Shown one piece after another: positions 18,741-46,711 of a stretch of DNA of 64,000 nt. The notes beneath the pieces were generated by a model. That model was not told the DNA's origin, did no database searches, and worked only from the letters and a program-made list of their open reading frames with translations. Source of the DNA: Mayamaea pseudoterrestris (lineage: Eukaryota); the NCBI GenBank assembly GCA_027923505.1, contig BROI01000017.1:558001-622000 (forward strand). Direction: 5' to 3'. Both the position numbers and the translations under genes were made by a program. Positions within the stretch are counted from its first letter, which is position 1. Each line of letters begins with the position of its first letter.

Positions 18741-19835
18741 ATGCAGGTTCTTCAACACGATGCCATTCATGAACATCGCACTCTTATCATTAACGGCGTT
18801 GACGCCGACCCCGACGCCTTTCCATTTTTTGCCTACATTGGTTGGGGCGGAGGTGCATTGATCGCTCCTGACCTCGTCCTTACGGCGGGACATTGCTTGC
18901 CCGACGACCAAAAGACGCTGCGAAAAATGAAGGTCCAGGTGGGAAAGTACTATAGAAACGACGATGATGACAGGCACGGAGGCAGCCGGCGTCACCGAGA
19001 CGACGATACTTCAGCCGTTGAAACCTTTCGCGTCGCCAGAGCTATCCAGCATCCTCTATTTCGCATCGAGGAACATGAAGATGACGAAGATGTCTTTCAT
19101 CACGACTATCTACTGTTGAAGCTCGACGGCCGATCCAGCGCTCCGGTTGTCACCATTAATCGCGATCCCTCCTTTCCTCAACCCGGCGATTCGCTCACGG
19201 TGACTGGCATGGGCTGGATTGAGCCAGACTGGCCCGATGTTTTCCCAAAGGTTCTTCAAACGGTGCAACTCGACTATTTGCCAAGCGATCAGTGCGCTCG
19301 ATCGTCCGGACGAGGCATTTCCTACCGCCACAAGATTCAAGACTGGCATTTGTGCACGAGCGGTGGAAAGCACAATGAGCGTGATGCGTGCGCATATGAT
19401 TCTGGGAGTCCCATTTTGGCCAAAGATAGCAAGACGGGCAAGCAAGTCTTGGTGGGAACTGTCAGTTGGGGCGAGGAGTGCGCCGACGAAGATTTTCCGG
19501 GCGTCAATTCGCGGACGAGCTTGGCGAGCGAGTGGATCGATGCCGTTGTTTGCGAGTACAGTGACGATCCGCCCGCGGACTTTAACTGTGCGAGTCGTCA
19601 TCAAGGATCATTGTTGAATTTTGATGAGCATCATCAGCATCATCCGTTGGAACTGCTGGTCGGTATAACGTTGATGGTTGCATCGTTGCTCTTGTTGCGC
19701 TGGTTCAAGAGCAAGAATACGAAAAGGTTGCTGCCAGCGAATGGCAAACTGGATGGTTTCCGGCGCATTGTTCGGCAAGGCAGCTCCTACTCGTACGACT
19801 CGGTCGGTAGCGGTGGTGTTGAAATTATCACATGA
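18741..19835 (+). CDS. Trypsin-like (S1A) serine protease with C-terminal TM helix; 5' end uncertain
   Basis: R-TL-IING activation-like site, LTAGHC, HDYLLLKL, DACAYDSGSP and VSWGEEC. No signal peptide in this ORF. Confidence 0.88.
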   Translation: MQVLQHDAIHEHRTLIINGVDADPDAFPFFAYIGWGGGALIAPDLVLTAGHCLPDDQKTLRKMKVQVGKYYRNDDDDRHGGSRRHRDDDTSAVETFRVARAIQHPLFRIEEHEDDEDVFHHDYLLLKLDGRSSAPVVTINRDPSFPQPGDSLTVTGMGWIEPDWPDVFPKVLQTVQLDYLPSDQCARSSGRGISYRHKIQDWHLCTSGGKHNERDACAYDSGSPILAKDSKTGKQVLVGTVSWGEECADEDFPGVNSRTSLASEWIDAVVCEYSDDPPADFNCASRHQGSLLNFDEHHQHHPLELLVGITLMVASLLLLRWFKSKNTKRLLPANGKLDGFRRIVRQGSSYSYDSVGSGGVEIIT

Positions 19836-21179: not shown

Positions 21180-21376
21180 AGTGCCAATGAAAACTACGTC
21201 ATGAGGCAATAGTATGAAACGAGTGCCAGTGAAAACTACGTCATGAGGCAATATTATGAAACGAGTGCCAGTGAAAATTACGTCACGAGGCAATAGTGTG
21301 AAACGAGTGCCAGTGAAAACTACGTCAATAGGCAATAGTATGAAACGAGTGCCAGTGAAAACTACGTCATGCGGCA
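21180..21376. repeat. 42-bp minisatellite, ~4.7 units (locus 2), in the divergent AKR/ankyrin intergenic region
   Basis: ACGTCA at 21196, 21238, 21280, 21322 and 21364. Unit ACGTCATGAGGCAATAGTATGAAACGAGTGCCAGTGAAAACT. Confidence 0.95.
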
Positions 21377-26659: not shown

Positions 26660-29227
26660 GATTCTCTGCAATCTCTACGGACCCAAAGAATAGTGTCGTG
26701 CCGCGTGCCGCGTCCGATTTCTAAAGCTCCGTGGTCGTCAGCGCCGCTGTAAATGCGATTTAATACTATTCTTCAAACTTCAAATTTATTAATAGACACT
26801 TGATTTGGAAGCTAAATCTACTTCATTTCAATAGCTTGGTCGTAACAAGGTCGGCTGCCGCCGTTGGCACTGACCCAGCCTTTGGATTTGGATGGCAGGT
26901 AGGTCGATCAGTGGGCAGTTGCAATGGATATGTACCGGTACCGTAGGCAGTCGTGTACTGTTCGCATGAGAGAGCATCCGGTTCCAAGAGAGTCAAGGGT
27001 GCAGTGCTCAGGCAGTGGTTGAGTAGCTATCCAACTATTGCCTACACGAACTGGCGGGATCTGTTCGCAAGAGCTTCTTGGTGCAGCGGTTGCGCAGTGG
27101 TTGGGTAGCTATCCGACATAAATATGTCCTACTGGTGTTACTCACTCACACACGCACGCACACGAAAAACTTTTAACTCACTGAGCCCGTTCCGGGTCAG
27201 TGATATTCCCTGATGCTTTCTCGGCCCATCAAAAATTGATTCTCGCAGCAAAATGGCCTCGTCACATAAGCGTCGTACCGGTACTAGCTGTCAAAGCTGA
27301 TAGCAGTCACACTATGGCATCCATGGTGATGGATAATGAGGTGCCACTGACCACACAAAGGTTCCATCATGTCAACAAACATGAATTGAAAGGGATTGGT
27401 GGGATCAGTAGGCAATGCTGATGATTCCTGTAGCCAAAAAGGGGGCACTGCTGGCACATTCAACTATTGGTTGAATGTGCGGAGTTTTCTGGCATGGTGA
27501 TATTTCCACACCCTAAATGACAAGACTATCAGTCCCATTCAATGCTATACTCCATGTTTGTTGTATCTAGGGTCTGTGGGCCATTCAGGCAGTTGGACTT
27601 GCCCCATGAGGTGCATTACTTGCAGATCCAACAAGTTGTTGGATCTGCCAAGTATCACCAATAGCATCCATGGTGATGGATAATGAGGTGCATGTGACCA
27701 AATGCTTGCTCATCATGTCAACAAACCTGAATTGAAAGGGATTGAGGGGCTCAGTAGGCAATGTAGCCAAAAAGGGGGCACTGCTGGCACATTCAACCAT
27801 TGGTTGAATGTGCGGAGTTTTCCGGCATGGTGATGGGTTCCACACCCAAAATGACAAGACTGTCAGTCCCATTCAATGTTATACTCCATGTTTGTTGTAT
27901 CTAGGGTCTGTGGGCCATTCAGGCAGTTGGACTTGCCACATGAGGTGCATTGCTCGCAGATCCAACAACTTGTTGGATCTGCCAAGCATCACCAATAGCA
28001 TCCATGGTGATGGATAATGAGGTGCATGTGACCAAATTCCTCGCCCATCATGTCAACCAACATGAATTGAAAGGGATTGAGGGGTTGGCAGGCAATGCTG
28101 ATTATCCCTGTTGCCAAAAAGGGGGCACTGCTTGGTTGAATGTGCGGAGTTTTCCGGCATGGTGATGGGTTCCACACCCAATATGACAAGACTGTCAGTC
28201 CCATTCAATGCTATAATCCGTGTTTGTTGTATCTAGGGTCTGTGGGCCATTCAGGCAGTTGGACTTGCCCCTTGAGGTGCATTGCTCGCAGATCCAACAA
28301 GTTGTTGGATCTGCCAAGTATCACCAATAGCATCCATTGTGATGGATAATGAGGTGCATGTGACCAAATGCCTTGCTCATCATGTCAACAAACCTGAATT
28401 GAAAGGGATTGAGGGGCTCAGGAGGTGATGCTGATGATCCCTGTAGCCAAAAAGGGGGCACTGCTGGCACATTCAACCATTGGTTGAATGTGCGGAGTTT
28501 TCCGGCATGGTGATGGGTTCCACACCCTAAATGACAAGACTGTCAGTCCCATTCAATGTTATACTCCATGTTTGTTGTATCTAGGGTCTGCGGGCCATTC
28601 AGGCAGTTGGACTTGCCCCTTGAGGTGCATTACTCCCAGATCCAACAAATGTTTGATCTGCCAAGTATCACCAATAGCATCCATGGTGATGGATAATGAG
28701 GTGCATGTGACCAAATGCCTCACTCATCATGTCAACAAACCTGAATTGAAAGGGATTGAGGGGCTCAGCAGGCAATGCTGATGATTCCTGTAGCCAAAAA
28801 GGGGGCACTGCTAGCACATTCAACCATTTGTTGAATGTGCGGAGTTTTCCGGCATGGTGATGGGTTCCACACCCAATATGACAAGACTATCAGTCCCATT
28901 CAATGTTATACTCCATGTTTGTTGTATCTAGGGTCTGTGGGCCATTCAGGCAGTTGGACTTGCCCCTTGAGGTGCATTGCTCGCAGATCCAACAAGTTGT
29001 TGGATCTGCCAAGTATCACCAATAGCATCCATGGTGATGGATAAAGAGGTGCATGTGACCAAATGCCTCACTCATCATGTCAACAATCATGAATGGAAAG
29101 GGATTGAGGGGCTCAGCAGGCAATGCTGATGATTCCTGTAGCCAAAAAGGGGGCACTGCTGGCACATTCAACCATTGGATGAATGTGCGGAGTTTTCCGG
29201 CATGGTGATGGGTTCCACACCCAAAAT

Positions 29228-29400
29228 TGACACAATATTATTGAGTTGAGTTGACCTGCGTCTCATGACAAGACGGTTAGCTACCTGTGTTTTGTATGCA
29301 TTTAATCCTGTGCAGGGTTGAGTCACACTTGTGACCGAATCCTCACATACATGAGTGAAATCGCTGACGATCGAGGCGTGAACCTCGACCGTGAACCCAG
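29228..29400 (+). mobile_element. First 173 bp of the 5' LTR of the Copia element, preceded by target-site AAAAT (29223-29227)
   Basis: Reads identical to 34512-34684; starts TGACAC. Confidence 0.92.
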
Positions 29401-31849
29401 CACACGGTGATGGATAAAGAGGTGCATGTGACCAAATTCTTAGCCCAACATGTCAACAAACATGAATGGAAAGGGATTGAGGGGCTCTGGAGGCGATGCT
29501 GATGATCCCTGTAGCCAAAAAGGGGACACTGCTGGCACATTCAACCATTGGTTGAATGTGCGGAGTTTTCTGGCATGGTGAAGGGTTCCACACCCAAAAT
29601 GACAAGACTGTCAGTCCCATTCGATGTTATACTCCATGTTTGTTGTATCTAGGGCCTGTGGGCCATCCAGGCAGTTGGACTTGCCACATGAGTTGCCTTG
29701 CTTGCAGATCCAACAAGTTGTTGGATCTGCCAAGTATCACCAATAGCATCCACGGTGATGGATAAAGAGGTGCATGTGACCAAATTCCTAGCCCATCATG
29801 TCAACAAACATGAATGGAAAGGGATTAATGGGCTCAGCAGGCAATGCTGATGATTCCTGTAGCCAAAAAGGGGGCACTGCTGGCACATTCAACCATTGGT
29901 TGAATGTGCGGAGTTTTCCGGCATGGTGATGGGTTCCACACCCTAAATGACAAGACTATCAGTCCCATTCGATGTTATACTCCAAGTTTGTTGTATCTAG
30001 GGTCTGTGGGCCATTCAGGCAGTTGGACTTGCCACATGAGGTGCCTTGCTTGCAGATCCAACAAGTTGTTGGATCTGCCAAGCATCACCAATAGCATCCA
30101 TGCTGATGGATAATGAGGTGTATGTGACCAAATTCCTCGCCCATCATGTCTTTAAACATGAATTGAAAGGGATTGAGGGGCCAGGCGCAAAGGATTCCCT
30201 GTGCGGCTTACAGTGGCACATTCAGGGAATGATGCGGAGTTTTCGCTGGTGATGGGTGGGTTCCCCCGTCAGCCTCATCATTCTCCATCGTTTTTGTCGT
30301 GGGCCATTCTGGCCCTCGTTTGTCAACGAGCATTGGTGATGGATGGTCTGTATCGCCCATTCCAATCAGCTGTGAAGGGTTGGGGCTCAGAAGAATCTGA
30401 GTGGTCCCCTGTAATGCGAGACCCAGCCAAAAGAGGAGCACTACTGGCTTCAACCATTGGTTGAATGTGCGGGGTTTCCTGGCATGGTGATGGGTTCCAC
30501 ACCCAAAATGACAAGACTGTCAGTCCCATTCAATGTTATACTCCATGTTTGTTGTATCTAGGGGTCTGTGGGCCATTCAGGCAGTGCACATGAGGTGCAA
30601 CTCGAGATCCAACAACTTGTTGGATCTGCCAAGCATCACCAATAGCATCCATGGTGATGGATAATGAGGTGCATGCCAAATTCCTACCTCATCATGTCAA
30701 CAAACCTGGAATTGAAAGGGATTGAGGGGGCTCAGGAGGTGATGCTGATGATCCTGCAGCCAAAAAGAGGCACTGCTGGCACATTCAACCATTGGTTGAA
30801 TGTGCGGAGTTTTTCCGGCATGGTGATGGGTTCCACCCAAAATGACAAGACTGTCAGTCCCATTCAATGTTATTCCATGTTTGTTGTATCTAGTGTCTGT
30901 GGGCCATTCAGTGGACTTGCCACATGAGGTGCCTTGCTTGCAGATCCAACAAGTTGTTGGATCTGCCAAGCATCACCAATAGCATCCATGGTGATGGATA
31001 ATGAGGTGTATGTGACCAAATTCCGCCTCATCATGTCAACAATCATGAATTGAAAGGGATTGATGGGCCAGCGCAGCAATGCTGATGATTCCCTGTAGCC
31101 AAAAAGGGGCACTGCTGGCACATTCAACCATTGTTGAATGTGCGGAGTTTTCCGGCATGGTGATGGGTTCCCCCCCCAAAATGACAAGACTGTCGTCCCA
31201 TTCAATGTATACTCCATGTTTATTGTATCTAGGGTCTGTGGGCCATTCAGGCAGTTGGAATTGCCCCTTGAGGTGCATTGCTCGCAGATCCGGCAATGTT
31301 GTTGGATCTGCCAAGTATCACCCAATAGCATCCATTGTGATGGATAATGAGGTGCATGTGACCAAACCTCACTCATCATGTCAACAAACCTGAATTGAAA
31401 GGATTGAGGGGCTCAGCAGGCAATGCTGATGATTCCTGTAGCCAAAAAGGGGACACTGCTGGCACATTCAACCATTGGTTGAATGTGGAGTTCCAGCATG
31501 GTGATGGGTTCCACACCCAAAATGACAAGACTGTCAGTCCCATTCAATGCTATACTCCATGTTTGTTGTATCTTGGGTCTGTGGGCCATTCAGGCAGTTG
31601 GACTTGCCATGAGGTGCAGATCCAACAAGTTGTTGATCTGCGCATCACCAATAGCATCCATGGTGGTGGATAATGAGGTGCCATGTGACCAAATGCCTCT
31701 CATCATGTCAACGCAAGTGGATTGAAAGGGATTGAGGGGCTCAGCAGGCGATGCTGATGATTTCCTGTAGCCAAAGGGGCACTGTCGGCACATTCAAGCG
31801 TGGTGGTAATGCGGAATTGCGCATGCGGTGGTTACACCCAAAATGCAAC

Positions 31850-34840
31850 TGTTTGTCGCCTTTCCAGGGATCTTGCTGATGAGGATACCACTGAGAGCAG
31901 TGACATGCCCATAGCGCTAGACTTCATTCAAGACATTGGCGCTCACTTGCTCGTGCGATAACTTGCGAGGGTACACGGCTCGGGAAGCAAGTTGAAACCT
32001 TGTTGCGATTCTGTGCGATTCGTGACCAACAGAGCGAGCGGATAGAACAGAACCCTGCCGCGTCGCATAAGAAGTCAAGATCAGTCAGAACATCATAGAC
32101 CGTGCGGGCCACGGTGAAGCTCCTATGCGCTGTACTAATCGCCTTTTCAACAATCTGCGACCAGTCCCTCAGTTGGAAGCCCCTACAAGCCGCCAGCAAC
32201 CGGTACCCGACATTCGCGTTCCTGCAGTTCAAGTTCTGGGAACTTGAGTCCTGTACGAAGCTGGAGCCGACCGAACCGCTGACATTTCCTCACACGAGCT
32301 CAGCAGGACGCTGAGTCAGCATTGCAGAGAAAAAGGGTGACATCCTCACGTACCAAGATTCGATCGATCGGTTTTCCAACGTTCGATCCCTTCTCTGAAG
32401 GACGTAACCTGCGCGCTGAGCTCTCTCCTGAACCTGAGTCCGAACTCTGTTCGACCTGCTATCTTCGGCAGCGCGCCCATGGCGTGGAGACGAGTCAAGT
32501 CGAGAGCGTCGACGAGTTTTGAATAGTATGACCTGATCGGTCGTGTTTGAACACGACCTTACACCGACCCCCAGCGCCTGATTCTGGGGAACCGTGGAGA
32601 TGACACATTCCACGTTGGAAAGCGCTGCAAGTTAGCCGGTTTGGATCCCGACGGACCCATGCCGTCCTTTACTCCGGCTGAACTGATGGATTGACCGTCC
32701 TTCTTGACAGACGCACCGCCCACGCGTTACAAAGGTTATCGAGCAAACTGAAACGATCGCGATGCGAAGCCAACCACAAGATTATCAACGATTGAGTCTC
32801 GGCGACGGCGACGTCGACCAGCTTACTACCTGCACAACGAACTAGCTGCCTTCCTCTGTGCGAGCAGCAAAGATTTCTTTACGACGTGGGGGGACGATGA
32901 CAACGACGACCAGTACTAAGAAGACTTCATTGACGGACATGAAGGTCCACTGACACAAGCCACGGCCCCTTCGTATCGCGGCTCATCCTACAACTTGCTC
33001 ATCCAATGGGCAAATGGTGAGAAGACCTGGGAGCCACTCGACAACATTGATCATCAACGTCCCCCGTGTGACCGCCGGAGTATGCGGCAAGCGCAAGGGC
33101 ATGCTGGACAAGGATGGATGGAAGCGCGTGAAAGCCGCATGGCAGGACGCACTAAACTGTTTAACCGCATGTGCAAGGCTGCAAAGAAGAACCGTGTCCA
33201 AGAAGCGTTCGTTACGCGTTTATTGCGGTCTTCATGAAGGAAGGCCTGACGCTCGGCGCTGCTAATGGAAACACCCTGTGGACTGGCCGCAGCGTCCAAG
33301 ACTGAGAGGAGCAGACAGAGGACCGACCACGTCACACCTTTTCCGGGCATCGGATTGCCTTTCATGAGAAAGTGACTGAAGCGCATCAACGCGGCATCTT
33401 GTTTTTCGACTGCAAGAATGATCTACACGGCGCCCAACCCGTGGCTCGCGCGGGGAATTTGACCGCTCCGCCCAAGGGACTCGCCTACTCCGGGCGTTGT
33501 ATCTATGCGAAGCATCCGAACCATAGCACTGTTCAGCTGAATTGAATCTGACCTCAAGTTTTGGGCTGCCGGAGGTAAGCCACCTAGGCCTAAAGACCAA
33601 GGAAAAAGGTCTATTTTGTTCCGGTCGCGTTGACAGATATTGAACTTAGTTTCTCAGGCACCTTGTCAATACGAGATTGCGCACTTCTGGCGCGCGTTGG
33701 CATGAGCACTTTGCCAACCACACTCCGCGACATTGGATTCTACCTCATTCACGCGGGACCTGACGTCTGGATGCGGAAAGACGACGCGGCACTCCAAATG
33801 CGTACACGGGCGTGTTCGTCGACGATCTGGCTAATGGCCACAGAAAGATCCCACAAGCCTTCACCTCAACGACCTCGTCATGAGACAAGTACAAGCACAG
33901 AGCAGGCCGGCATCAATTGGTACCACCTTGGAGCCCATTCTATCGTGTGATCCCGATGGAAACCCTCTGCATGAGCGCCAACCTCGTGGGTCGCGATGCT
34001 CGAACCTACGGGTAACCATGTGTTTGGCGAAGAAGCGACGGCCACGCCGCAAGCCGCTGACGCGTTCGGCAATGGGAGTCCTGCGATCCTGAACCAGACG
34101 CCCGTCGAATGGTTCTGCAAGCGTCAGAAAAAACAATCATGAACAGCGAGTTCGTCGTAGCCAAGACCGCAACGCAACAGATTATGGATTCCGATACCCC
34201 TACGCATGTTGGGAGTTTCCTTTGAGTGGACCAGCCTGGATGTTCGGCGACAACGAAAGTGTCAAGAAGTCGTCAACGATCCCGCACTCCACACTTTCTA
34301 AGCGACACAATGCGCTCGCCTACCACCGAGTTCGCGAGGCCATTGCAAGCAATGTTCTGTACTTTGAGCACATCTTCGGCAAGCAGAACGTTGCCGACGT
34401 TCTTACTAAGTTCTTGCCGCACGCCACGTTCCGACCCCTGATCATTCCGATTCTTTTCTGGAAGGGTGATACGGCAAACCGATCGTTGTCACAAGCCTAG
34501 ATCAAGGGGGATGACACAATATTATTGAGTTGAGTTGACCTGCGTCTCATGACAAGACGGTTAGCTACCTGTGTTTTGTATGCATTTAATCCTGTGCAGG
34601 GTTGAGTCACACTTGTGACCGAATCCTCACATACATGAGTGAAATCGCTGACGATCGAGGCGTGAACCTCGACCGTGAACCCAGTGAGAACGAGAAAGAA
34701 GCGCACGAGTAGAGTAGCGAGTAACATGCACTATTCTAGCAATTGAGTTTGTTTGTTTGCTTTACGCTGGACGAAGAGGTTGATCGCTCCGAGTCCATTG
34801 TAGTCGCTGGAATAAAGGTTCGTCTGATATTATCGTGTCA
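31850..34840 (+). mobile_element. Ty1/copia (diatom CoDi-like) LTR retrotransposon: frameshifted pol remnant, PPT and complete 329-bp 3' LTR (34512-34840)
   Basis: Intact copia RNase H end MFGDNESV..LSKRHNALAYHRVREAIA..NVADVLTK (34222-34500); RT-like PDVWMR; PPT AAGGGGGA at 34504-34511; LTR TGACAC..GTGTCA followed by AAAAT. Confidence 0.9.
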
Positions 34841-37800
34841 AAAATGACAAGACTGTCAGTCCCATTCAATGCTATACTCCATGTTTGTTGTATCTAGGGT
34901 CTGTGGGCCATCCATGGTGATGGATAATGAGGTGCATGTGACCAAATTCCTTGCCCATCATGTCTTTAAACATGAAGTGAAAGGGATTGAGGGGCTCAGT
35001 AGGCAATGGTGATGATTCCTGTAGCCAAAAAGGGGGCACTGCTGGCACATTCAATCATTGGTTGAATGTGCGGAGTTTTCTGGCATGGTGATTGGTTCCA
35101 CACCCAAAATGACAAGACTGTCAGTCCCATTCAATGTTATACTCCATGTGTGTTGTATCTAGGGTCTGTGGGCCATTCAGGCAGTTGGACTTGCCCCTTG
35201 AGGTGCATTGCTCGCAGATCCAAGAACTTGTTGGATCTGCCAAGCATCACCAACAGCATCCATGGTGATGGATAATTAGGTGCATGTGACCAAATGCCTC
35301 TCTCATCATGTCAACCAACCTGAATTGAAAGTGATTGAGGGGCTCAGCAGGCAATGCTGATGATCCCTGTAGCCAAAAAGGGGGCACGGCTGGCACATTC
35401 AACCATTTGTTGAATGTGCGGAGTTTTCCGGCATGGTGATGGGTTCCTTACCCAAAATGACAAGACTGTCAGTCCCATTCAATGTTATACTCCATGTGTG
35501 TTGTATCTAGGGTCTGTGGGCCATTCAGGCAGTTGGACTTGCCCCTTGAGGTGCATTACTCCCAGATCCAACAAATGTTGGATCTTCCAAGCATCACCAA
35601 CAGCATCCATGGTGATGGATAATGAGGTGCATGTGACCAAATGCCTCTCTCATCATGTCAACCAACCTGAATTGAAAGTGATTGAGGGGCTCAGCAGGCA
35701 ATGCTGATGATCCCTGTAGCCAAAAAGGGGGCATGGCTGGCACATTCAACCATTTGTTGAATGTGCGGAGTTTTCCGGCATGGTGATGGGTTCCACACCC
35801 AATATGACAAGACTGTCAGTCCCATTCAATGCTATAATCCGTGTTTGTTGTATCTAGGGTCTGTGGGCCATTCAGGCAGTTGGACTTGCCCCTTGAGGTG
35901 CATGGCTCGCAGATCCAACAAGTTGTTGGATCTGCCAAGCATCACCAATAGCATCCATTGTGATGGATAATGAGGTGCATGTGATCAAATGCCTTGCTCA
36001 TCATGTCAACAAACCTGAATTAAAAGGGATTGAGGGGCTCAGGAGGTGATGCTGATGACCCCCGTAGCCAAAAAGGGGCACTGCTGGCACATTCAACCAT
36101 TGGTTGAATGTGCGGAGTTTTCCGGCATGGTGATGGGTTCCACACCCAAAATGACAAGACTGTCAGTCCCATTCAATGTTATACTCCATGTTTGTTGTAT
36201 CTAGGGCTGTGGGCCATTCAGGCAGTTGGACTTGCCCCTTTAGGTGCATTGCTTGCAGATCCAACAAGTTGTTGGATCTGCCAAGCATCGCCAAAAGCAT
36301 CCATGGTGATGGATAATGAGGTCCATGTGACCAAATTCCTCGCTCATCATGTCAACAAACCTGAATTGAAAGGAATTAAGGGGCTCAGCATGCAATGCTG
36401 ATGACCCCCGTAGCCAAAAAGGGGGCACTGCTGGCACATTCAACCATTGGTTGAATGTGCGGAGTTTTCCGGCATGGTGATGGGTTCCACACCCAATATG
36501 ACAAGACTATCAGTCCCATTCAATGCTATACTCCATGTTTGTTGTATCTAGGGTCTGTGGGCCATTCAGGCAGTTGGACTTGCCCCTTGAGGTGCATTGC
36601 TCGCAGATCCAACAAGTTGTTGGATCTGCCAAGTATCACCAATAGCATCCATGGTGATGGATAATGAGGTGCATGTGACCAAATGCCTCACTCATCATGT
36701 CAACAAACCTGAATTGAAAGGGATTGAGGGGCTCAGCAGGCAATGCTGATGATTCCTGTAGCCAAAAAGGGGGCACTGCTGGCACATTCAACCATTGGTT
36801 GAATGTGCGGAGTTTTCCGGCATGGTGATGGGTTCCACACCCAAAATGACAAGACTGTCAGTCCCATTCAATGCTATACTCCATGTTTGTTGTATCTAGG
36901 GTCTGTGGGCCATTCAGGCAGTTGGAATTGCCCCTTGAGGTGCATTGCTCGCAGATCCAACAAGTTGTTGGATCTGCCAAGCATCACCAATAGCATCCAT
37001 GGTGATGGATAATGAGGTGCATGTGACCAAATTCCTCGCCCATCATGTCTTTAAACATGAAGTGAAAGGGATTGAGAGGCTCAGGAGGTGATGCTGATGA
37101 TCCCTGTAGCCAGAAAGGGGGCACTGCTGGCACAATCAACCATTGGTTGAATGTGCGGAGTTTTCCGGCATGGTGATGGGTTCCACACCCAAAATGACAA
37201 GACTGTCAGTCACATTTAATGATATACTCCATGTTTGTTGTATCTAGGGTCTGTGGGCCATTCAGGCAGTTGGACTTGCCACTTGAGGTGCATTGCTCGC
37301 AGATCCAACAACTTGTTGGATCTGCCAAGCATCACCAATAGCATCCATGGTGATGGATAATTAAGTCCATGTGATCAAATTCCTTGCTCATCATGTAAAC
37401 AAACCTGAATTGAAAGGGATTGAGGGGCTCAGCAGGCAATGCTGATGATTCCTGTAGCCAAAAAGGGGGCACTGCTGGCACATTCAACCATTGGTTGAAT
37501 GTGCGGAGTTTTCTGGCATGGTGATGGGTTCCACACCCTAAATGACAAGATTGTCAGTCCCATTCAATATTATACTCCATGTTTGTTGTATCTAGGGTCT
37601 GCGGGCCATTCAGGCAGTTGGACTTGCCCCTTGAGGTGCATTACTCCCAGATCCAACAAGTTGTTGGATCTGCCAAGTATCGCCAATAGCATCCATGGTG
37701 ATGGATATTGAGGTGCATGTGACCAAATGCCTCACTCATCATGTCAACAAACATGAATTGAAAGGGATTGAGAGGCTCAGGAGGTGATGCTGATGATCCC

Positions 37801-40800
37801 TGTAGCCAAAAAGGGGGCACTGCTGGCACATTCAACCATTGATTGAATGTGCGGAGTTTTCCGGCATGGTGATGGGTTCCACACCCAAAATGACAAGACT
37901 GTCAGTCCCTTTAAATGTTATACTCCATGTTTGTTGTATCTAGGGTCTGTGGGCCATTCAGGCAGTTGGACTTGCCCCTTGAGGTGCATTGCTCGCAGAT
38001 CCAACAAGTTGTTGGATCTGCCAAGTATCACCAATAGCATCCATGGTGATGGATAATGAGGTGCATGTGACCAAATTCCTAGCCCATCATGTCAACAAAC
38101 ATGAATGGAAAGGGATTAAAGGGCTCAGGAGGCAATGCTGATGATCCCTGTAGCCAAAAAGGGGACACTGCTGGCACATTCAACCATTGGTTGAATGTGC
38201 GGAGTTTTCCGGCATGGTGAAGGGTTCCACACCCAAAATGACAAGACTGTCAGTCCCATTCGATGTTATACTCCATGTTTGTTGTATCTAGGGCCTGTGG
38301 GCCATTCAGGCAGTTGGACTTGCCACATGAGGTGCCTTGCTTGCAGATCCAACAAGTTGTTGGATCTGCCAAGTATCACCAATAGCATCCATGGTGATGG
38401 ATAATGAGGTGCATGTGACCAAATTCCTCGCCCATCATGTCAACAAACATGAATTGAAAGGGATTGAGGGGCTCAGCAGGCAATGCTGATGATCCCTGTA
38501 GCCAAAAAGGGGGCACTGCTGGCACATTCAACCATTGGTTGAATGTGCGGAGTTTTCTGGCATGGTGATGGGTTCCACACCCAAAATGACAAGACTGTCA
38601 GTCCCATTCAATGTTATACTCCATGTTTGTTGTATCTAGGGTCTGTGGGCCATTCAGGCAGTTGGACTTGCCACATGAGGTGCATTGCTCGCAGATCCAA
38701 CAACTTGTTGGATCTGCCAAGCATCACCAATAGCATCCATGGTGATGGATAATGATGTGCATGTGACCACATTCCTAGCCCATCATATCAACAAACATGA
38801 ATTGAAAAGGAATTGGAGGGCTCAGCAGGCAATGCTGATGATCCCTGTAGCCAAAAAGAGTGCACTGCTGGCACATTCAACCATTTGTTGAATGTGCGGC
38901 GTCTCCTGGCATGGTCATGGGTTCCACACCCAAAATGACAAGACTATCCATCCCATTCTATGTTAAACTCCATGTTTGTTGTTTTCTAGGGCTGGCGGTC
39001 CATTCAGGCAGTTGGACTTGCCCTTTGAGGTGCACGGCTCTTAGATTTAAGTTGTTGGATCTGCCAAGTATCACCAGTGGTATCCATGGTGATGGATAAT
39101 AAAGTGCATGTGACCAAACTTCTAGCCCATCATGTCATTGCTTGCAGATCCAACAAGTTGTTGGATCTGCCAAGCATCGCCAAAAGCATCCATGGTGATG
39201 GATAATGAGGTCCATGTGACCAAATTCCTCGCTCATCATGTCAACAAACCTGAATTGAAAGGAATTAAGGGGCTCAGCATGCAATGCTGATGACCCCCGT
39301 AGCCAAAAAGGGGGCACTGCTGGCACATTCAACCATTGGTTGAATGTGCGGAGTTTTCCGGCATGGTGATGGGTTCCACACCCAATATGACAAGACTATC
39401 AGTCCCATTCAATGCTATACTCCATGTTTGTTGTATCTAGGGTCTGTGGGCCATTCAGGCAGTTGGACTTGCCCCTTGAGGTGCATTGCTCGCAGATCCA
39501 ACAAGTTGTTGGATCTGCCAAGTATCACCAATAGCATCCATGGTGATGGATAATGAGGTGCATGTGACCAAATGCCTCACTCATCATGTCAACAAACCTG
39601 AATTGAAAGGGATTGAGGGGCTCAGCAGGCAATGCTGATGATTCCTGTAGCCAAAAAGGGGGCACTGCTGGCACATTCAACCATTGGTTGAATGTGCGGA
39701 GTTTTCCGGCATGGTGATGGGTTCCACACCCAAAATGACAAGACTGTCAGTCCCATTCAATGCTATACTCCATGTTTGTTGTATCTAGGGTCTGTGGGCC
39801 ATTCAGGCAGTTGGAATTGCCCCTTGAGGTGCATTGCTCGCAGATCCAACAAGTTGTTGGATCTGCCAAGCATCACCAATAGCATCCATGGTGATGGATA
39901 ATGAGGTGCATGTGACCAAATTCCTCGCCCATCATGTCTTTAAACATGAAGTGAAAGGGATTGAGAGGCTCAGGAGGTGATGCTGATGATCCCTGTAGCC
40001 AGAAAGGGGGCACTGCTGGCACAATCAACCATTGGTTGAATGTGCGGAGTTTTCCGGCATGGTGATGGGTTCCACACCCAAAATGACAAGACTGTCAGTC
40101 ACATTTAATGATATACTCCATGTTTGTTGTATCTAGGGTCTGTGGGCCATTCAGGCAGTTGGACTTGCCACTTGAGGTGCATTGCTCGCAGATCCAACAA
40201 CTTGTTGGATCTGCCAAGCATCACCAATAGCATCCATGGTGATGGATAATTAAGTCCATGTGATCAAATTCCTTGCTCATCATGTAAACAAACCTGAATT
40301 GAAAGGGATTGAGGGGCTCAGCAGGCAATGCTGATGATTCCTGTAGCCAAAAAGGGGGCACTGCTGGCACATTCAACCATTGGTTGAATGTGCGGAGTTT
40401 TCTGGCATGGTGATGGGTTCCACACCCTAAATGACAAGATTGTCAGTCCCATTCAATATTATACTCCATGTTTGTTGTATCTAGGGTCTGCGGGCCATTC
40501 AGGCAGTTGGACTTGCCCCTTGAGGTGCATTACTCCCAGATCCAACAAGTTGTTGGATCTGCCAAGTATCGCCAATAGCATCCATGGTGATGGATATTGA
40601 GGTGCATGTGACCAAATGCCTCACTCATCATGTCAACAAACATGAATTGAAAGGGATTGAGAGGCTCAGGAGGTGATGCTGATGATCCCTGTAGCCAAAA
40701 AGGGGGCACTGCTGGCACATTCAACCATTGATTGAATGTGCGGAGTTTTCCGGCATGGTGATGGGTTCCACACCCAAAATGACAAGACTGTCAGTCCCTT

Positions 40801-43800
40801 TAAATGTTATACTCCATGTTTGTTGTATCTAGGGTCTGTGGGCCATTCAGGCAGTTGGACTTGCCCCTTGAGGTGCATTGCTCGCAGATCCAACAAGTTG
40901 TTGGATCTGCCAAGTATCACCAATAGCATCCATGGTGATGGATAATGAGGTGCATGTGACCAAATTCCTAGCCCATCATGTCAACAAACATGAATGGAAA
41001 GGGATTAAAGGGCTCAGGAGGCAATGCTGATGATCCCTGTAGCCAAAAAGGGGACACTGCTGGCACATTCAACCATTGGTTGAATGTGCGGAGTTTTCCG
41101 GCATGGTGAAGGGTTCCACACCCAAAATGACAAGACTGTCAGTCCCATTCGATGTTATACTCCATGTTTGTTGTATCTAGGGCCTGTGGGCCATTCAGGC
41201 AGTTGGACTTGCCACATGAGGTGCCTTGCTTGCAGATCCAACAAGTTGTTGGATCTGCCAAGTATCACCAATAGCATCCATGGTGATGGATAATGAGGTG
41301 CATGTGACCAAATTCCTCGCCCATCATGTCAACAAACATGAATTGAAAGGGATTGAGGGGCTCAGCAGGCAATGCTGATGATCCCTGTAGCCAAAAAGGG
41401 GGCACTGCTGGCACATTCAACCATTGGTTGAATGTGCGGAGTTTTCTGGCATGGTGATGGGTTCCACACCCAAAATGACAAGACTGTCAGTCCCATTCAA
41501 TGTTATACTCCATGTTTGTTGTATCTAGGGTCTGTGGGCCATTCAGGCAGTTGGACTTGCCACATGAGGTGCATTGCTCGCAGATCCAACAACTTGTTGG
41601 ATCTGCCAAGCATCACCAATAGCATCCATGGTGATGGATAATGATGTGCATGTGACCACATTCCTAGCCCATCATATCAACAAACATGAATTGAAAAGGA
41701 ATTGGAGGGCTCAGCAGGCAATGCTGATGATCCCTGTAGCCAAAAAGAGTGCACTGCTGGCACATTCAACCATTTGTTGAATGTGCGGCGTCTCCTGGCA
41801 TGGTCATGGGTTCCACACCCAAAATGACAAGACTATCCATCCCATTCTATGTTAAACTCCATGTTTGTTGTTTTCTAGGGCTGGCGGTCCATTCAGGCAG
41901 TTGGACTTGCCCTTTGAGGTGCACGGCTCTTAGATTTAAGTTGTTGGATCTGCCAAGTATCACCAGTGGTATCCATGGTGATGGATAATAAAGTGCATGT
42001 GACCAAACTTCTAGCCCATCATGTCAACAAACATGAATTGCAAGGGATTGGAGGGCTCAGCGGGCAATGCTGATGATCCCTGTAGCCAAAAAGGGGGCAC
42101 TGCTGGCACATTCAACCATTGGTTGAATAGCGAAGTTTTCCGGTATGGTGATGGGTTCCACAACCTAAATGACAAGATTATCAGTCCCATTCAATGTTTA
42201 CTTTCTTGTTTGTTGTATCTAGGGTCTGTGGGCCATTCAGGCAGTTGGACTAGCCACTTGAGGTGCATGGCTCACAGATCCAAGTTGTTGGATCTGCCAA
42301 GTATCACCAGTAGTATCCATGGTGATGGATAATGAGGTGCATGTGACCACATTCCTAGCCCATCATGTCAACAAACATGAATTGAAAGGGATTGGAGGGC
42401 TCAGCAGGCAATGCTGATGATCCCTGTAGCCAAAAAGGGTGCACTGCTGGCACATTCAACCATTCATTGAATGTGCAGAATCTCTTGGCATGGTGATGGG
42501 TTCCACACCCAAAATGACAAGACTATCCATCCCATTCTATGTTAAACTCCATGTTTGTTGTATTCTAGGGTCTGTGGGCCATTCAGTCAGTCTGTCTGGC
42601 TTGCCACTTGAGGTGCACTGCTCGCAGATCCAACAAGTTGTTGGATCTGCCAAGCATCACCAATAGCATCCATGGTGATGGATAATGAGGTGCATGTGAC
42701 CAAATTCCTCGCCCATCATGTCTTTAAACATGAATTGAAAGGGATTGAGGGGCTCAGCAGGCAATGCTGATGATCCCTGTAGCCAAAAAGGGGGCACTGC
42801 TGGCACATTCAACCATTGGTTGAATGTGCGGAGTTTTCTGGCATGGTGATGGGTTCCACACCCTAAATGACAAGACTATCAGTCCCATTCAATGCTATAC
42901 TCCATGTTTGTTGTATCTAGGGTCTGTGGGCCATTCAGGCAGTTGGACTTGCCACTTGAGGTGCATGGCTCGCAGATCCAAGTTGTTGGATCTGCCAAGT
43001 ATCACCAGTGGCATCCATGGTGATGGATAATGAGGTGCATGTGACCAAATTCCTAGCCCATCATGTCAACAAACCTGAATTGAAAGGGATTGAGGGGCTC
43101 AGTAGGCAATGCTGATGATTCCTGTAGCCAAAAAGGGGGCACTGCTGGCACATTCAACCAATTTCCGGCATGGTGATGGGTTCCACACCCGAAATGACAA
43201 AACTGACAGTCCCATTCAATCTTATACTCCATGTTTGTTGTATTCTAGTGTCTGTGGGCCATTCAAGCAGTTGGACTTGCTACTTGAGGTGCTTTGCTTG
43301 CAGATCCAACAAGTTGTTGGATCTGCCAAGTATCACCAATAGCATCCATGGTGATGGATAATGAGGTGCATGTGACCAAATGCCTCGCTCATCATGTCAA
43401 CAAACCTGAATTGAAAGGGATTGAGGGGCTCAGCAGGCAATGCTGATGATCCCTGTAGCCAAAAAGGGTGCACTGCTGGCACATTCAACCATTTGTTGAA
43501 TGTGCGGAATCTCTTGGCATGGTGATGGGTTCCACACCCAAAATGACAAAATTATCCATCCCATTCTATGTTAAACTCCATATTTGTTGTATTCTAGGGT
43601 CTTTGGGCAATTCAGGCAGTTGGACTTGCCACTTGAGGTGCATGGCTTGCAGATCCAAGTTGTTGGATCTGCCAAGTATCACCAGTGGCATCCATGGTGA
43701 TGGATAATGAGGTGCATGTGACCAAATTCCTAGCCCATCATGTCAACAAACATGAATTGAAAGGGATTGAGGGGCTCAGCAGGCAATGCTGATGATCCCT

Positions 43801-46711
43801 GTAGCCAAAAAGGGGGCACTGCTGGCACATTCAACCATTTGTTGAATGTGCGGAGTTTTCCGGCATGGTGATGGGTTCCACACCCAAAATGACAAGACTG
43901 TCAGTCCCATTCAATGTTATACTCCATGTTTGTTGTATTCTAGGGTTGGTTGGCCATTCCAACAGTCTGGCTTGCCACTTGAGGTGCTCTGCTCACAGAT
44001 CCAACAAGTAGTTGGATCTGCCAAGTATCACCAGTGGTATCCATGGTGATGGATAATGAGGTGCATGTGACCAAATTCCTAGCCCATCATGTCAACAAAC
44101 ATGAATTGAAAGGGATTGGAGGGCTCAGCAGGCAATGCTGATGATCCCTGTAGCCAAAAAGGGTGCACTGCTGGCACATTCAACCATTCATTGAATGTGC
44201 GGAATCTCTTGGCATGGTGATGGGTTCCACACCCAAAATGACAAGACTATCCATCCCATTCTATGTTAAACTCCATGTTTGTTGTATGCTAGGGTCTGTG
44301 GGCCATTCGGGCAGTTGGACTTGCCACTTGAGGTGCATGGCTCACAGATCCAAGTTGTTGGATCTGCCAAGTATCACCAGTGGCATCCATGGTGATGGAT
44401 AATGAGGTGCATGTGACCACATTCCTAGCCCATCATGTCAACAAACATGAATTGAAAGGGATTGGAGGGCTCAGCAGGCAATGCTGATGATCCCTGTAGC
44501 CAAAAAGGGTGCACTGCTGGCACATTCAACCATTGGTTGAATGTGCGGAGTTTTCCGGCATGGTGATGGGTTCCACACCCAAAATGACAAGACTGTCAGT
44601 CCCATTCAATGTTATACTCCATGTTTGTTGTATCTAGGGTCTGTGGGCCATTCAGGCAGTTGGACTTGCCACATGAGGTGCATTGCTCGCAGATCCAACA
44701 AGTTGTTGGATCTGCCAAGCATCACCAATAGCATCCATGGTGATGGATAATGAGGTGCATGTGACCAAATTCCTCGCCCATCATGTCAACAAACATGAAT
44801 TGAAAGGGATTGAGGGGCTCAGCAGGCAATGCTGATGATCCCTGTAGCCAAAAAGGGGGCACTGCTGGCACATTCAACCATTGGTTGAATGTGCGGAGTT
44901 TTCCGGCATGGTGATGGGTTCCACACCCTAAATGACAAGACTATCAGTCCCATTCAATGCTATACTCCATGTTTGTTGTATCTAGGGTCTGTGGGCCATT
45001 CAGGCAGTTGGACTTGCCCCTTGAGGTGCATTGCTCGCAGATCCAACAAGTTGTTGGATCTGCCAAGCATCACCAATAGCATCCATGGTGATGGATAATG
45101 AGGTGCATGTGACCAAATGCCTCATTCATCATGTCAACAAACCTGAATTGAAAGGGATTGAGGGGCTCAGCAGGCAATGCTGATGATCCCTGTAGCCAAA
45201 AAGGGGGCACTGCTGGCACATTCAACCATGGAGTTTTCCGGCATGGTGATGGGTTCCACACCCAAAATGACAAGACTGTCAGTCCCATTCAATGTTATAC
45301 TCCATGTTTGTTGTATCTAGGGTCTGTGGGCCATTCAGGCAGTTGGACTTGCCACTTGAGGTGCATTGCTCGCAGATCCAACAAGTTGTTGGATCTGCCA
45401 AGTATCACCAATAGCATCCATGGTGATGGATAATGAGGTGCATGTGACCAAATGCCTCTCTCATCATGTCAACAAACATGAATTGAAAGGGATTGAGGGG
45501 CTCAGCAGGCAATGCTGATGATCCCTGTAGCCAAAAAGGGGGCACTGCTGGCACATTCAACCATTGGTTGAATGTGCGGAGTTTTCCGGCATGGTGATGG
45601 GTTCCACACCCAAAATGACAAGACTGTCAGTCCCATTCAATGTTATACTCCATGTTTGTTGTATCTAGGGTCTGTGGGCCATTCAGGCAGTTGGACTTGC
45701 CACATGAGGTGCATTGCTCGCAGATCCAACAACTTGTTGGATCTGCCAAGTATCACCAATAGCATCCATGGTGATGGATAATGAGGTGCATGTGACCAAA
45801 TGCCTTGCTCATCATGTCAACAAACCTGAATTGAAAGGGATTGAGGGGCTCAGCAGGCAATGCTGATGATTCCTGTAGCCAAAAAGGGGGCACTGCTGGC
45901 ACATTCAACCATTGGTTGAATGTGCGGAGTTTTCCGGCATGGTGATGGGTTCCACACCCAACATGACAAGACTATCAACCCCATTCAATGTTCTACTCCA
46001 TGTTTGTTGTATTCCAGGGTCTGTGGGCAATACAGGCAGTTGGACTTGCCACCTGAGGTGCATTACTCACAGATCCAACAAGTTGTTGGATCTGCCAAGT
46101 ATCACCAATAGCATCCATAATGATGGATAACGAGGTGCAAGTGGCCAAATGTCTAGCCCATCATGTCAACAAACATGGATTGAAAGTGATTGAGGGGCTC
46201 AGCAGGCAATGCTGATGATTCCTGTAGCCAAAAAAGGGGCACTGCTGGCACATTCAACCATTGGTTGAATGTGCGTAGTTTTCCGGCATGGTGATGGGTT
46301 CCACACCCAAAATGACAAGACTGTCAGTCCCATTCAATGTTAAACTCCATGTTCACTGTATTCTGGGGTCAGCGGGCCATTCCGGCAGTCTGGCTTGCTA
46401 CTTGAGGTGCACTGCTTGCAGACCTAACATGATTCATCCAGAGTCAGATTGGTCCCTTCCCCTGGTGCAAAGTAAAAATTCCTGCATGCTGAACGCATTT
46501 GCCAACATTTCAGCTGCATTTTGTTGTTCCATTGGAACTGCCACGCAGCCAGGTAAGACCCCGCGGTCGCTCCAAGGGAGATGTGTAATAGCTCGGCAAA
46601 CGAAACCGGAACGACATGAAGCAACCTTCGCGGCGCGAGCCTTTCACTTTTCCACCATGGAAAGGATCTGAACGGGAACTGCATCATTTTTTCCCACTTA
46701 CCAATTCCAAC

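What the first reader, a model, noticed from the sequence alone, without database searches (positions are those of the whole stretch)
36434..36808. Two homologous perfect palindromes per satellite unit that differ by three compensatory base-pair swaps
Seen: intact units have A=GCAGATCCAACAA-G-TTGTTGGATCTGC (e.g. 36603-36629) and B=GCACATTCAACCA-T-TGGTTGAATGTGC (e.g. 36434-36460). Both have 13-bp arms and a 1-nt centre. They differ at positions 4/24, 7/21, 12/16 and the centre, so every arm change is matched by its partner. Inference: dyad symmetry, not primary sequence, has been maintained. Possible causes are selection for a cruciform or homodimer-binding site, or arm-to-arm template-switch correction. 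This is the most unusual signal in the window.
Basis: partly seen in the sequence, partly recalled or inferred. Interest (0 to 1): 0.82.

Follow-up and report, generated by a model that had tools for sequence, protein, structure and literature searches.

The report
Paired palindromes in a diatom satellite
A 348-base tandem repeat in a diatom genome carries two related, perfectly symmetric 27-base sites per unit whose differences are mirrored on both arms; this is real, but a known replication error followed by repeat amplification explains it most simply.

Summary
A and B are perfect 13-1-13 palindromes at the stated coordinates, each present 22 times exactly. They differ at 4/24, 7/21, 12/16 and the centre.

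They are paralogous. They share a 12-nt left flank, and the two half-units align in direct orientation outside the palindromes (z 3.2). The unit is therefore an old ~174-bp dimer.

The inference of maintained symmetry is only partly supported:
- Of 21 arm-variant types in the window, none is compensated.
- In public contigs, 40-64% of depth at B position 16 is T, which unpairs 12/16. No partner change is among the listed rows.
- One arm-homogenising template switch can create all three swaps at once (PMC8794818).

Three things suggest the sites are more than passive sequence. The palindrome blocks carry 7-100 times the contig depth of the rest of the unit. Rearrangement ends cluster in them. 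Both array right ends lie in a left arm.

Best reading: hairpin-forming, break-prone cores symmetrised by template switching and spread by satellite amplification. Selection for a cruciform, for example at a centromere, is not excluded. This is a new member of a known kind, in a diatom whose genome paper lists no satellites.

The parts
27314..31797 (+). Older arrays of the 348-bp satellite, about 13 monomers, some with indels and two diverged inserts
   Evidence: TRF: period 348 with 8.3 copies at 83% matches, and period 339 with 4.1 copies at 85%. BLAST tiling.
34841..46429 (+). Younger arrays of the same satellite, about 33 monomers. They include a 2889-bp internal duplication (36461-39137 against 39350 onward).
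   Evidence: TRF: 12.2 and 21.1 copies at 93% and 91% matches. Seven monomer pairs are identical.
36461..36808 (+). Reference 348-bp unit, with A at unit positions 143-169 and B at 322-348. It is non-coding.
   Evidence: Every one of the six frames has at least 2 stops per unit: 6 to 18 stops per three concatenated consensus units. No Rfam family matched and no tRNA was found.
36603..36629 (.). Palindrome A, perfect 13-1-13
   Evidence: The DNA hairpin energy is -12.3 kcal/mol with z -8.3.
36434..36460 (.). Palindrome B, perfect 13-1-13. The next copy is at 36782-36808.
   Evidence: The DNA hairpin energy is -12.1 kcal/mol with z -6.3.
36591..36602 (+). Non-symmetric left flank of A (GGTGCATTGCTC), paralogous to the left flank of B at 36770-36781 (GGGGCACTGCTG)
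   Evidence: 9 of 12 positions are identical. The commonest contig variants (36597 T>C; 36772 G>T or G>A) would raise this.
38871..38897 (.). Example of variant B' (position 16 G>T), in which pair 12/16 is unpaired
   Evidence: 7 of 41 B sites in the window. 54%, 42%, 40% and 64% of contig depth at 36797 in X1, X2, X6 and X7. The hairpin energy is -10.9 kcal/mol and only the loop widens.
37299..37325 (.). Example of A with centre C, the complement of G. It is still a perfect palindrome.
   Evidence: 8 of 43 A sites have centre C and none has A or T.
45216..45229 (+). B with its right arm deleted exactly at the centre
   Evidence: Sequence read. Monomer end at unit position 335.
43148..43160 (+). 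B cut at the centre, by a deletion of about 19 nt running into the next unit
28133..28145 (+). B with its left arm and centre deleted, so that only the right arm remains
31788..31797 (+). Right end of the first array block, inside the left arm of B
46418..46429 (+). Right end of the whole satellite domain, inside the left arm of A, 1-2 nt from the centre
34222..34500 (+). Context: the tail of a Ty1/copia polyprotein in the 3-kb non-satellite insert (31798-34840) between the arrays
   Evidence: 379 hits at E<=0.001, many carrying PF07727. The best hit is 99% identical. Pfam itself gave no hit on the 92-aa piece.

Best explanation
The window holds about 19 kb of an undescribed 348-bp satellite of a diatom, most likely Mayamaea pseudoterrestris or a near relative. 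The unit is an old direct dimer of subrepeats of about 174 bp. Each subrepeat keeps one copy of a conserved block that ends in a 27-bp perfect palindrome, with spacing 179 and 169 bp.

Shown:
- A and B are paralogous.
- Both fold as 12-bp DNA hairpins.
- Their three arm differences are mirrored.
- Present-day arm mutations are not compensated.
- Deletions and array ends cluster in the palindromes.
- The palindrome blocks have far more contig depth than the rest of the unit.

Inferred: on single-stranded DNA during replication or repair the palindromes fold back, and the nascent strand copies one arm from the other (intra-strand template switching, also called quasipalindrome correction). One such event turns an arm that has drifted at several positions into a perfect palindrome of new sequence. 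That creates all of the 'compensatory swaps' at once. Satellite amplification from that founder monomer then multiplies the perfect site.

The same hairpins make the sites break-prone and recombinogenic. This would explain the centre-anchored deletions and array ends. It may also explain why these blocks are the most widely shared, best homogenised part of the family. Perfect symmetry is then a by-product of mutation and amplification rather than proof of a selected structure.
For: - A and B are paralogous. 10 of 13 arm positions and 9 of 12 left-flank positions are identical. The halves align in direct orientation with z 3.17 (1 of 1000 shuffles), while the inverted orientation gives z 1.32 (109 of 1000).
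- Hairpin energies are -12.3 (A), -12.1 (B) and -10.9 (B') kcal/mol, and 0 of 200 shuffles fold as well as any of them.
- There is no ongoing compensation. 15 of 43 A sites and 19 of 41 B sites are imperfect, and 0 of 21 arm-variant types is compensated.
- In contigs, B position 16 G>T takes 54%, 42%, 40% and 64% of depth in four runs. A position 17 G>A takes 13-20%. Neither has a partner change among the 40 listed rows.
- B' carries the same T16 as A, so it looks like a half-changed intermediate.
- The only centre variant of A is the complement (C in 8 of 43 sites; A or T in 0). Spacer inversion by template switching gives exactly this (PMC8604942, abstract in the listing).
- Template switching creates perfect stems and multi-base compensatory changes in a single event (PMC8794818, abstract).
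- Fragility: 12 of 36 rearrangement endpoints fall in the palindromes, which make up 15.5% of the unit (P 0.006, endpoints not independent). 4 lie within 2 nt of a centre against 1.0 expected. 8 of 20 events touch a palindrome.
- Summed contig depth in X1 is 640,000-980,000 on the palindromes. It is about 91,000-102,000 on the boxes best conserved inside the window, and 8,000-31,000 on the lowest bins. The other three runs have the same shape.
Against: - Template switching alone does not slow divergence. Yet the arms differ at only 3 of 13 pairs, against 47% mismatch in the aligned remainder of the halves. This is not significant (Fisher P 0.15).
- The blocks, including non-symmetric flanks, are the most abundant part of the family. 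That points to some constraint or to preferential homogenisation, and I did not demonstrate either.
- Within the window, arm substitution rates (2.6% for A, 1.6% for B) are about half the non-arm rate (4.8%). With gaps counted they are similar (4.3% and 5.4% against 5.8%), and a 27-nt sliding window ranks A and B only 163rd and 182nd of 348.
- No template-switch event was observed directly.
- Most centre-C monomers carry CAAGCAT just after A (seen by eye, not counted). The monomer tree is poorly resolved (17 of 29 inner branches open). Centre C may therefore have arisen once.
- Contig depth is a summed k-mer figure. Short contigs from variable parts may have been filtered out (caveat stated).
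Confidence: 0.5

Rival explanations
1. The dyad is kept by selection because the DNA must extrude a cruciform or hairpin. An example would be a structural mark of centromeric or heterochromatic chromatin, with one hairpin per nucleosome-length (~174 bp) subrepeat. The mirrored differences would then be true compensatory evolution.
For: - There are two perfect 13-bp-arm palindromes per unit, spaced 169 and 179 bp apart.
- All three A/B arm differences keep pairing.
- The palindrome blocks are the most abundant part of the family in four runs.
- The two common arm variants in contigs (B position 16, A position 17) sit next to the loop. The B' change costs 1.2 kcal/mol.
- The arrays are long, interrupted by a copia fragment and embedded among housekeeping genes, as small regional centromeres can be.
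- Dyad symmetries are enriched in centromeric satellites of many eukaryotes (PMC5889037, abstract and passages).
Against: - 0 of 21 arm-variant types is compensated, and a third to a half of the sites in the window are imperfect yet were amplified.
- The two arms are unequally variable. In A the left arm varies and in B the right arm varies (per-column counts). Selection for pairing does not predict this.
- Non-symmetric flanks are conserved as well.
- Diner et al. report that the centromeres of Phaeodactylum, the one diatom studied, are not satellites (recalled; I saw only the search listing).
- I have no data on chromosome-wide distribution, CENH3 or extrusion.
Confidence: 0.2
2. A and B are binding sites of a homodimeric sequence-specific DNA-binding protein, or of two paralogous dimers. 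Symmetry would then reflect two identical half-site contacts.
For: - Ten of 13 half-site positions are invariant between A and B, and a fixed asymmetric flank lies beside both.
- The blocks are conserved genome-wide.
- Perfect symmetry with an odd centre is typical of dimer sites (general knowledge).
Against: - A position that a dimer tolerates changing has no need of a matched change in the other half-site. Three mirrored differences therefore require a second protein of altered specificity, or an extra symmetrising mechanism.
- B', with one half-site changed, takes about half of the depth at that position.
- The two arms vary unequally within the window.
- No candidate protein was sought or found.
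Confidence: 0.13
3. The palindromes are relics of a mobile element: abutted terminal inverted repeats of a MITE, or Helitron/Helentron-type hairpins. The satellite would have grown from the element's internal repeats.
For: - Read from centre to centre, each half-unit has 13-nt ends that are 10 of 13 inverted repeats of each other (follows).
- Satellites carried by MITEs and Helentrons with conserved palindromes near repeat junctions are known in bivalves (PMC5139131 passages; PMC7492417 and PMC3879986 seen only in the listing).
Against: - The half-units are homologous in direct orientation, not inverted.
- No CTRR motif lies 10-12 nt after either hairpin on either strand. I checked this by eye, and the Helitron rule itself is recalled.
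- No isolated copy of A or B lies outside the arrays in the window: 0 hits with up to 6 mismatches.
- The species' genome paper lists 0 DNA transposons and 0 rolling-circle elements (Table S3).
Confidence: 0.05
4. The arrays are transcribed and the palindromes act as RNA hairpins, for example as small-RNA precursors or processing signals. Pairing would then be selected at the RNA level.
For: - The stems are stable and the whole unit folds better than shuffles do (z -4.05 with DNA parameters).
- The common A position 17 G>A variant would be a G-U wobble in a minus-strand transcript (inference).
Against: - No Rfam family matched, even at E<=10, apart from chance-level hits.
- B' gives C-U or A-G, not a wobble pair, on either strand.
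- No compensated variants were found.
Confidence: 0.05

Closest known systems
phBglII400 satellite DNA of clams (Satovic et al. 2016, PMC5139131; passages read)
   Same: - The monomer is of similar size and is internally repetitive, with two halves.
- The monomer carries two palindromes.
- Junctions between the satellite and other DNA map non-randomly within the palindromes (13 of 16 at the longer one, the rest at the shorter). Here both array right ends and three internal deletions likewise lie in A or B.
   Different: - Its palindromes are 12 and 10 bp, against 27 bp here.
- The passages I read say nothing about mirrored differences between the two palindromes.
- It is from molluscs, and no sequence relation was tested.
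Template-switch (quasipalindrome) mutation that perfects and maintains hairpin stems (Monttinen and Loytynoja 2022, PMC8794818, abstract; PMC8604942, abstract in the listing)
   Same: - It accounts for perfect stems and for several compensatory changes arising in one event.
- It accounts for arm homogenisation.
- It accounts for spacer inversion, which here would be the A centre changing from G to its complement C.
   Different: - It has been documented in RNA genes, yeast coding genes and bacterial reporters, not in satellite DNA.
- No event was caught here. The link is an inference from pattern.
Dyad symmetries / non-B-form DNA in centromeric satellites (Kasinathan and Henikoff 2018, PMC5889037; abstract and passages)
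   Same: The DNA is a tandem satellite with subunits of nucleosome-scale length, each carrying a dyad predicted to form a hairpin or cruciform.
   Different: - That work concerns dyads shorter than 10 bp, where these have 13-bp perfect arms.
- The words 'compensat' and 'covar' do not occur in that paper.
- A centromeric location for this satellite is untested.
Palindromes at junctions of satellite arrays on the Nasonia PSR chromosome (Reed et al. 1994; known only from the citation and one sentence in PMC5139131)
   Same: Palindromes are associated with recombination junctions between repeat arrays.
   Different: I did not read the paper. It concerns a different organism and different repeat families.

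Membership tests
Satellite DNA (long head-to-tail arrays of a non-coding monomer) | Tandem head-to-tail monomers in long arrays | tested here: met
   Four TRF arrays of period 348 or 339, about 46 copies in total. BLAST tiling, all pieces on the + strand.
Satellite DNA (long head-to-tail arrays of a non-coding monomer) | Non-coding, and not a known RNA gene | tested here: met
   At least 2 stops per unit in every frame. 0 Rfam matches at gathering score. 0 tRNA genes.
Satellite DNA (long head-to-tail arrays of a non-coding monomer) | High copy number genome-wide | tested here: inconclusive
   1759 and 638 contigs of two runs lie on the unit with very high summed depth. No single-copy depth and no assembly were available, so no copy number can be given.
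Dimeric (higher-order) satellite unit | The two halves of the unit are homologous in direct orientation | tested here: met
   Global alignment outside the palindromes gives z 3.17, reached by 1 of 1000 shuffles. The halves also share a flank and the CATGGTGATGG box.
Centromeric satellite with dyad symmetry (Kasinathan-Henikoff type) | Dyad symmetry predicted to form non-B DNA in each unit | tested here: met
   Hairpins of -12.3 and -12.1 kcal/mol, with z -8.3 and -6.3.
Centromeric satellite with dyad symmetry (Kasinathan-Henikoff type) | Occupancy by CENH3, or one array per chromosome | not testable with these tools
   No genome is held for this window and there are no ChIP data.
Structure under selection for base pairing (covariation criterion) | Several independent compensated changes, with few unpaired intermediates | tested here: not met
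   The only compensated differences are the three between A and B, and these may be one event. 0 of 21 variant types within the window is compensated. The unpaired B' takes 40-64% of contig depth at that position.
Template-switch-corrected quasipalindrome | Clustered changes in one arm that are the exact complement of the other arm, and a spacer that may invert | tested here: inconclusive
   The pattern fits: the differences are mirrored, and the centre of A is G or its complement C only. No ancestral state or outgroup was available to show an event.
Helitron / Helentron 3' hairpin | A hairpin about 10-12 nt upstream of a CTRR terminus (rule recalled) | tested here: not met
   No CTRR lies at that distance after A or B on either strand (read by eye).
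Ribozyme-bearing satellite (hammerhead type) | A match to a self-cleaving ribozyme model | tested here: not met
   A CTGATGA word occurs upstream of B, but no ribozyme family appears even at E<=10.

The most novel reading that the evidence does not exclude
These arrays are the centromeric, or centromere-defining heterochromatic, satellite of this diatom. The two 27-bp palindromes per unit are hairpin or cruciform elements kept by selection, one per nucleosome-length subrepeat. The A/B swaps and the half-changed B' variant would then be compensatory evolution caught in progress. This would be the first satellite-based, structure-specified centromere described in a diatom, in contrast to what I recall of the AT-rich, non-satellite centromeres of Phaeodactylum.
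Probability: 0.15. Interest if true: 0.75.

Novelty: new member of a known kind. Interest (0 to 1): 0.4.

Why it matters
Satellite DNAs with conserved palindromes are known, and so is the idea that template switching can imitate compensatory evolution. This case brings the two together unusually clearly. It has two paralogous perfect palindromes in one unit and a frequent half-changed intermediate. It also has centre-anchored deletions and array ends inside the palindromes.

It is a warning that mirrored differences in a repeat family are not by themselves evidence of selection for structure.

It also marks an undescribed, abundant satellite in a small (about 30 Mb) diatom genome whose paper lists zero satellites. 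If the arrays prove to occur once per chromosome, they become direct candidates for diatom centromeres. The palindromes would then give a simple handle for probing and mutating them.

Tried and rejected
- Whole-genome search: no genome is held for this window.
- Relatives elsewhere: a pattern with N at all seven differing places found one unrelated coding contig in metagenome contigs. It is not symmetric at the N places and I judge it a chance match. It found 0 in genome contigs and 0 in viral contigs. These collections hold few or no diatom genomes, so this says little.
- Earlier findings of this scan: nothing on this genome or this sequence.
- Literature search for the two 27-mers: 0 papers. 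Searches for diatom satellite and palindrome gave nothing on diatom satellites.
- RNA families: none at gathering score. Only chance-level hits at E<=10. No tRNA or tmRNA.
- Coding repeat (348 = 3 x 116): rejected, because all frames have stops.
- Unit as a giant degenerate palindrome (inverted dimer): rejected, z 1.32.
- A first harsh-scoring alignment of the halves was uninformative.
- Monomer tree made to time the B/B' and centre G/C changes: it needs 7 and 5 changes. However, 17 of 29 inner branches are unresolved and monomers exchange sequence, so I drew no conclusion.
- Arm against flank divergence between A and B: 3 of 13 against 65 of 139, Fisher P 0.15, not significant.
- Expression: no RNA holder was listed among the sequencing runs. 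All laid runs are contigs, so they carry no information on transcripts.
- Pfam on ORFs of the 31.8-34.8 kb insert: nothing. The copia nature came from the protein search.
- Short dyads at the A- and B-equivalent places of a diverged monomer (30182-30424): a single case from a heavily gapped alignment, not used as evidence.
Full report
WHAT IS THERE

The window is nuclear DNA of a compact eukaryote. Its long ORFs encode DNA polymerase epsilon, PDS5, an RNB nuclease, PPR proteins, a UCH hydrolase and others. No whole genome is held for it.

Between 27.3 and 46.4 kb lie four tandem arrays of one 348-bp unit, about 46 copies at 83-93% matches. All are on the + strand. They are interrupted at 31.8-34.8 kb by a GC-richer insert. 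That insert ends with the tail of a Ty1/copia polyprotein: 379 hits, many carrying PF07727. The best hit is 99% identical and is named by its source as a hypothetical protein of the diatom Mayamaea pseudoterrestris.

The unit is non-coding, with at least 2 stops per unit in every frame. It matches no Rfam family and no tRNA.

CHECK OF THE OBSERVATION

A (36603-36629) and B (36434-36460 and 36782-36808) are perfect palindromes with 13-nt arms and one central base. They differ at positions 4, 7, 12, 14, 16, 21 and 24. These are three mirrored pairs plus the centre.

The window has 22 exact A, 22 exact B and 6 perfect A with centre C. A pattern with N at the seven variable places matches 58 times, against 0.00 expected. 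Outside the arrays there is a single perfect palindrome with arms of 9 or more, in about 45 kb.

ARE A AND B HOMOLOGOUS?

Yes. Four lines of evidence agree:
- 10 of 13 arm positions are identical.
- The 12 nt to the left are 9 of 12 identical: GGTGCATTGCTC against GGGGCACTGCTG. The commonest variants in public contigs would raise this.
- The same CATGGTGATGG lies 20 nt (A) and 12 nt (B) to the right.
- The remaining 152 and 142 nt of the two half-units align globally in direct orientation better than 999 of 1000 shuffles (z 3.17). The inverted orientation does not (z 1.32).

The unit is therefore an old direct dimer of subrepeats of about 174 bp, with spacing 179 and 169 bp and one palindrome each. 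It is not a giant palindrome.

IS SYMMETRY BEING MAINTAINED NOW?

I found no sign of it within the window. Among 43 A sites and 41 B sites, 28 and 22 are perfect. The other sites comprise 21 arm-variant types, and none of these is compensated. Several imperfect types have themselves been amplified:
- B' (position 16 G>T) occurs in 7 sites.
- A 3-bp deletion in the left arm of A occurs in 6 monomers.

In 32 distinct near-full monomers, arm substitution rates are 2.6% (A) and 1.6% (B), against 4.8% elsewhere. With gaps counted the figures are 4.3% and 5.4% against 5.8%. In a 27-nt sliding window A and B rank 163rd and 182nd of 348. Two non-palindromic boxes around CATGGTGATGG are at least as invariant.

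The arms are also unequal. In A the left arm varies, and in B the right arm varies.

GENOME-WIDE VIEW FROM PUBLIC CONTIGS (Logan contigs of four coded runs, laid at 80% likeness or more)

Of the 40 variant rows shown (26 more were not shown), only two lie in the 54 palindrome positions:
- B position 16 G>T takes 54%, 42%, 40% and 64% of depth.
- A position 17 G>A takes 13-20% of depth.

Neither has a listed partner change. B' unpairs pair 12/16, which is one of the three 'swapped' pairs. It carries the T that A has at that place, so it looks like a half-way state. In a DNA hairpin it only widens the loop, at -10.9 against -12.1 kcal/mol.

Summed contig depth peaks sharply on the two palindrome blocks. 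In X1 it is 640,000-980,000 there, against about 91,000-102,000 on the boxes best conserved in the window and 8,000-31,000 in the troughs. All four runs have the same shape. For B the high-depth block extends about 50 nt upstream into non-symmetric sequence.

My reading is that these blocks are shared by more, and more diverged, copies than the rest of this monomer. There are caveats. Depth is one summed figure per contig, and short contigs from variable parts may have been left out.

SIGNS THAT THE PALINDROMES FOLD OR BREAK IN VIVO

I listed the 20 rearrangements of 3 nt or more. Eight of them touch a palindrome. 12 of 36 endpoints lie in the palindromes, which make up 15.5% of the unit (binomial P 0.006, endpoints not independent). 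Four lie within 2 nt of a centre, against 1.0 expected.

Examples:
- The right arm of B is deleted exactly at the centre (45229/45230).
- The left arm plus the centre of B is deleted (28132/28133).
- One deletion starts at the centre of B (43160).
- Both right ends of the satellite blocks lie inside a left arm (31797 in B; 46429 in A).

The numbers are small, but the pattern is the one described for the clam satellite phBglII400. That satellite also has an internally dimeric monomer, and its junctions map within its two palindromes (PMC5139131, passages).

The centre of A is G or its complement C (8 of 43 sites) and never A or T. The centre of B is always T. Centre C sits mostly on monomers with CAAGCAT just after A (by eye), so it may have arisen once. 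The monomer tree is too poorly resolved to tell.

MECHANISM

The mirrored differences mean that the arms of at least one palindrome changed in concert. Independent drift cannot do this.

Selection for pairing could. So could intra-strand template switching, which copies one arm from the other. It is documented to create perfect stems and multi-base compensatory changes in a single event (PMC8794818, abstract). It is also documented to homogenise arms and invert spacers (PMC8604942, abstract in the listing).

The three swaps may therefore be one event in a founder monomer, multiplied by satellite amplification. That removes most of their weight as evidence for selection. The free decay of symmetry in present copies and the abundance of B' fit this reading.

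A homodimer site explains the mirrored differences poorly. A tolerated change in one half-site needs no partner change in the other.

Template switching alone does not explain why the blocks, including their asymmetric flanks, are the best conserved and most abundant part of the family. Either there is constraint (structure or protein), or the hairpins are break and repair hotspots around which homogenisation is most efficient. I favour the second, because of the endpoint clustering, but I have not shown it.

COMPARISON WITH WHAT IS KNOWN, AND NOVELTY

The kind is known: satellite DNAs with conserved palindromes, junctions in palindromes, and dyad symmetry in centromeric satellites (PMC5889037). 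That paper deals with dyads shorter than 10 bp and does not mention compensation or covariation.

What is new is the member. The genome paper for Mayamaea pseudoterrestris does not mention satellite, tandem or centromere in its main text. Its repeat table lists Satellites 0 and Unclassified 7.36% (Table S3). My searches found no paper holding either 27-mer and nothing on diatom satellites of this kind.

Whether the arrays are centromeric could not be tested.

VERDICT

The best explanation (confidence 0.5) is hairpin-forming, break-prone cores symmetrised by template switching and spread by amplification. Selection for a cruciform, possibly at centromeres, stays open at about 0.2.

Noticed in passing
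window 36461-39137 and 39350-42128: A segment of about 2.9 kb of the array is duplicated in tandem. Seven consecutive monomers are identical between the two copies, so monomers are not independent samples.
   Followed up: partly
window 31798-34840: A GC-richer (54.6%) non-satellite insert splits the arrays. Its last ORF (34222-34500) is the tail of a Ty1/copia polyprotein, 99% identical to a protein that its source names from Mayamaea pseudoterrestris. The rest is broken, and Pfam recognises nothing in it.
   Followed up: partly
window 30182-30424: A strongly diverged, shortened monomer. At the B-equivalent place it keeps only 8-bp arms (GCACATTC..GAATGATGC, with the centre lost). At the A-equivalent place it has an unrelated 6-bp-arm dyad (CTCGTT-TGTC-AACGAG). 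This is a single case from a gapped alignment.
   Followed up: partly
window 36472-36482 and 36649-36659 (unit positions 12-22 and 189-199): CATGGTGATGG occurs once in each half-unit and lies in the least variable stretches of the monomers in the window. In the A half it is part of a 6-4-6 dyad (ATCCAT-GGTG-ATGGAT).
   Followed up: partly
window 16667-16798 and 21180-21376: Two short arrays of a related 42-bp tandem repeat lie near two ORFs of identical length (364 aa) at 16857-17951 and 18741-19835. The first of these matches a pseudouridine synthase domain, which suggests a local gene duplication.
   Followed up: no
window 7377-14412 and 61307-64000: DNA polymerase epsilon is read from several adjacent minus-strand ORFs (7377-11405, 11406-12119, 12709-14412), presumably separated by introns. 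A second family-B polymerase ORF runs off the right end of the window.
   Followed up: no
window 42134-42476 and 43852-44200: Two monomers carry an adjacent double change in the right arm of B (TTGGTTG to TTCATTG). Two others have a complex change at the centre of A (AAGTTG to AAATG). These are clustered multi-base changes next to the loop.
   Followed up: no
L001 1498-1524: The only metagenome match to the degenerate palindrome pattern lies in a coding region of an unrelated contig. It is not symmetric at the free positions, and I judge it a chance match.
   Followed up: yes
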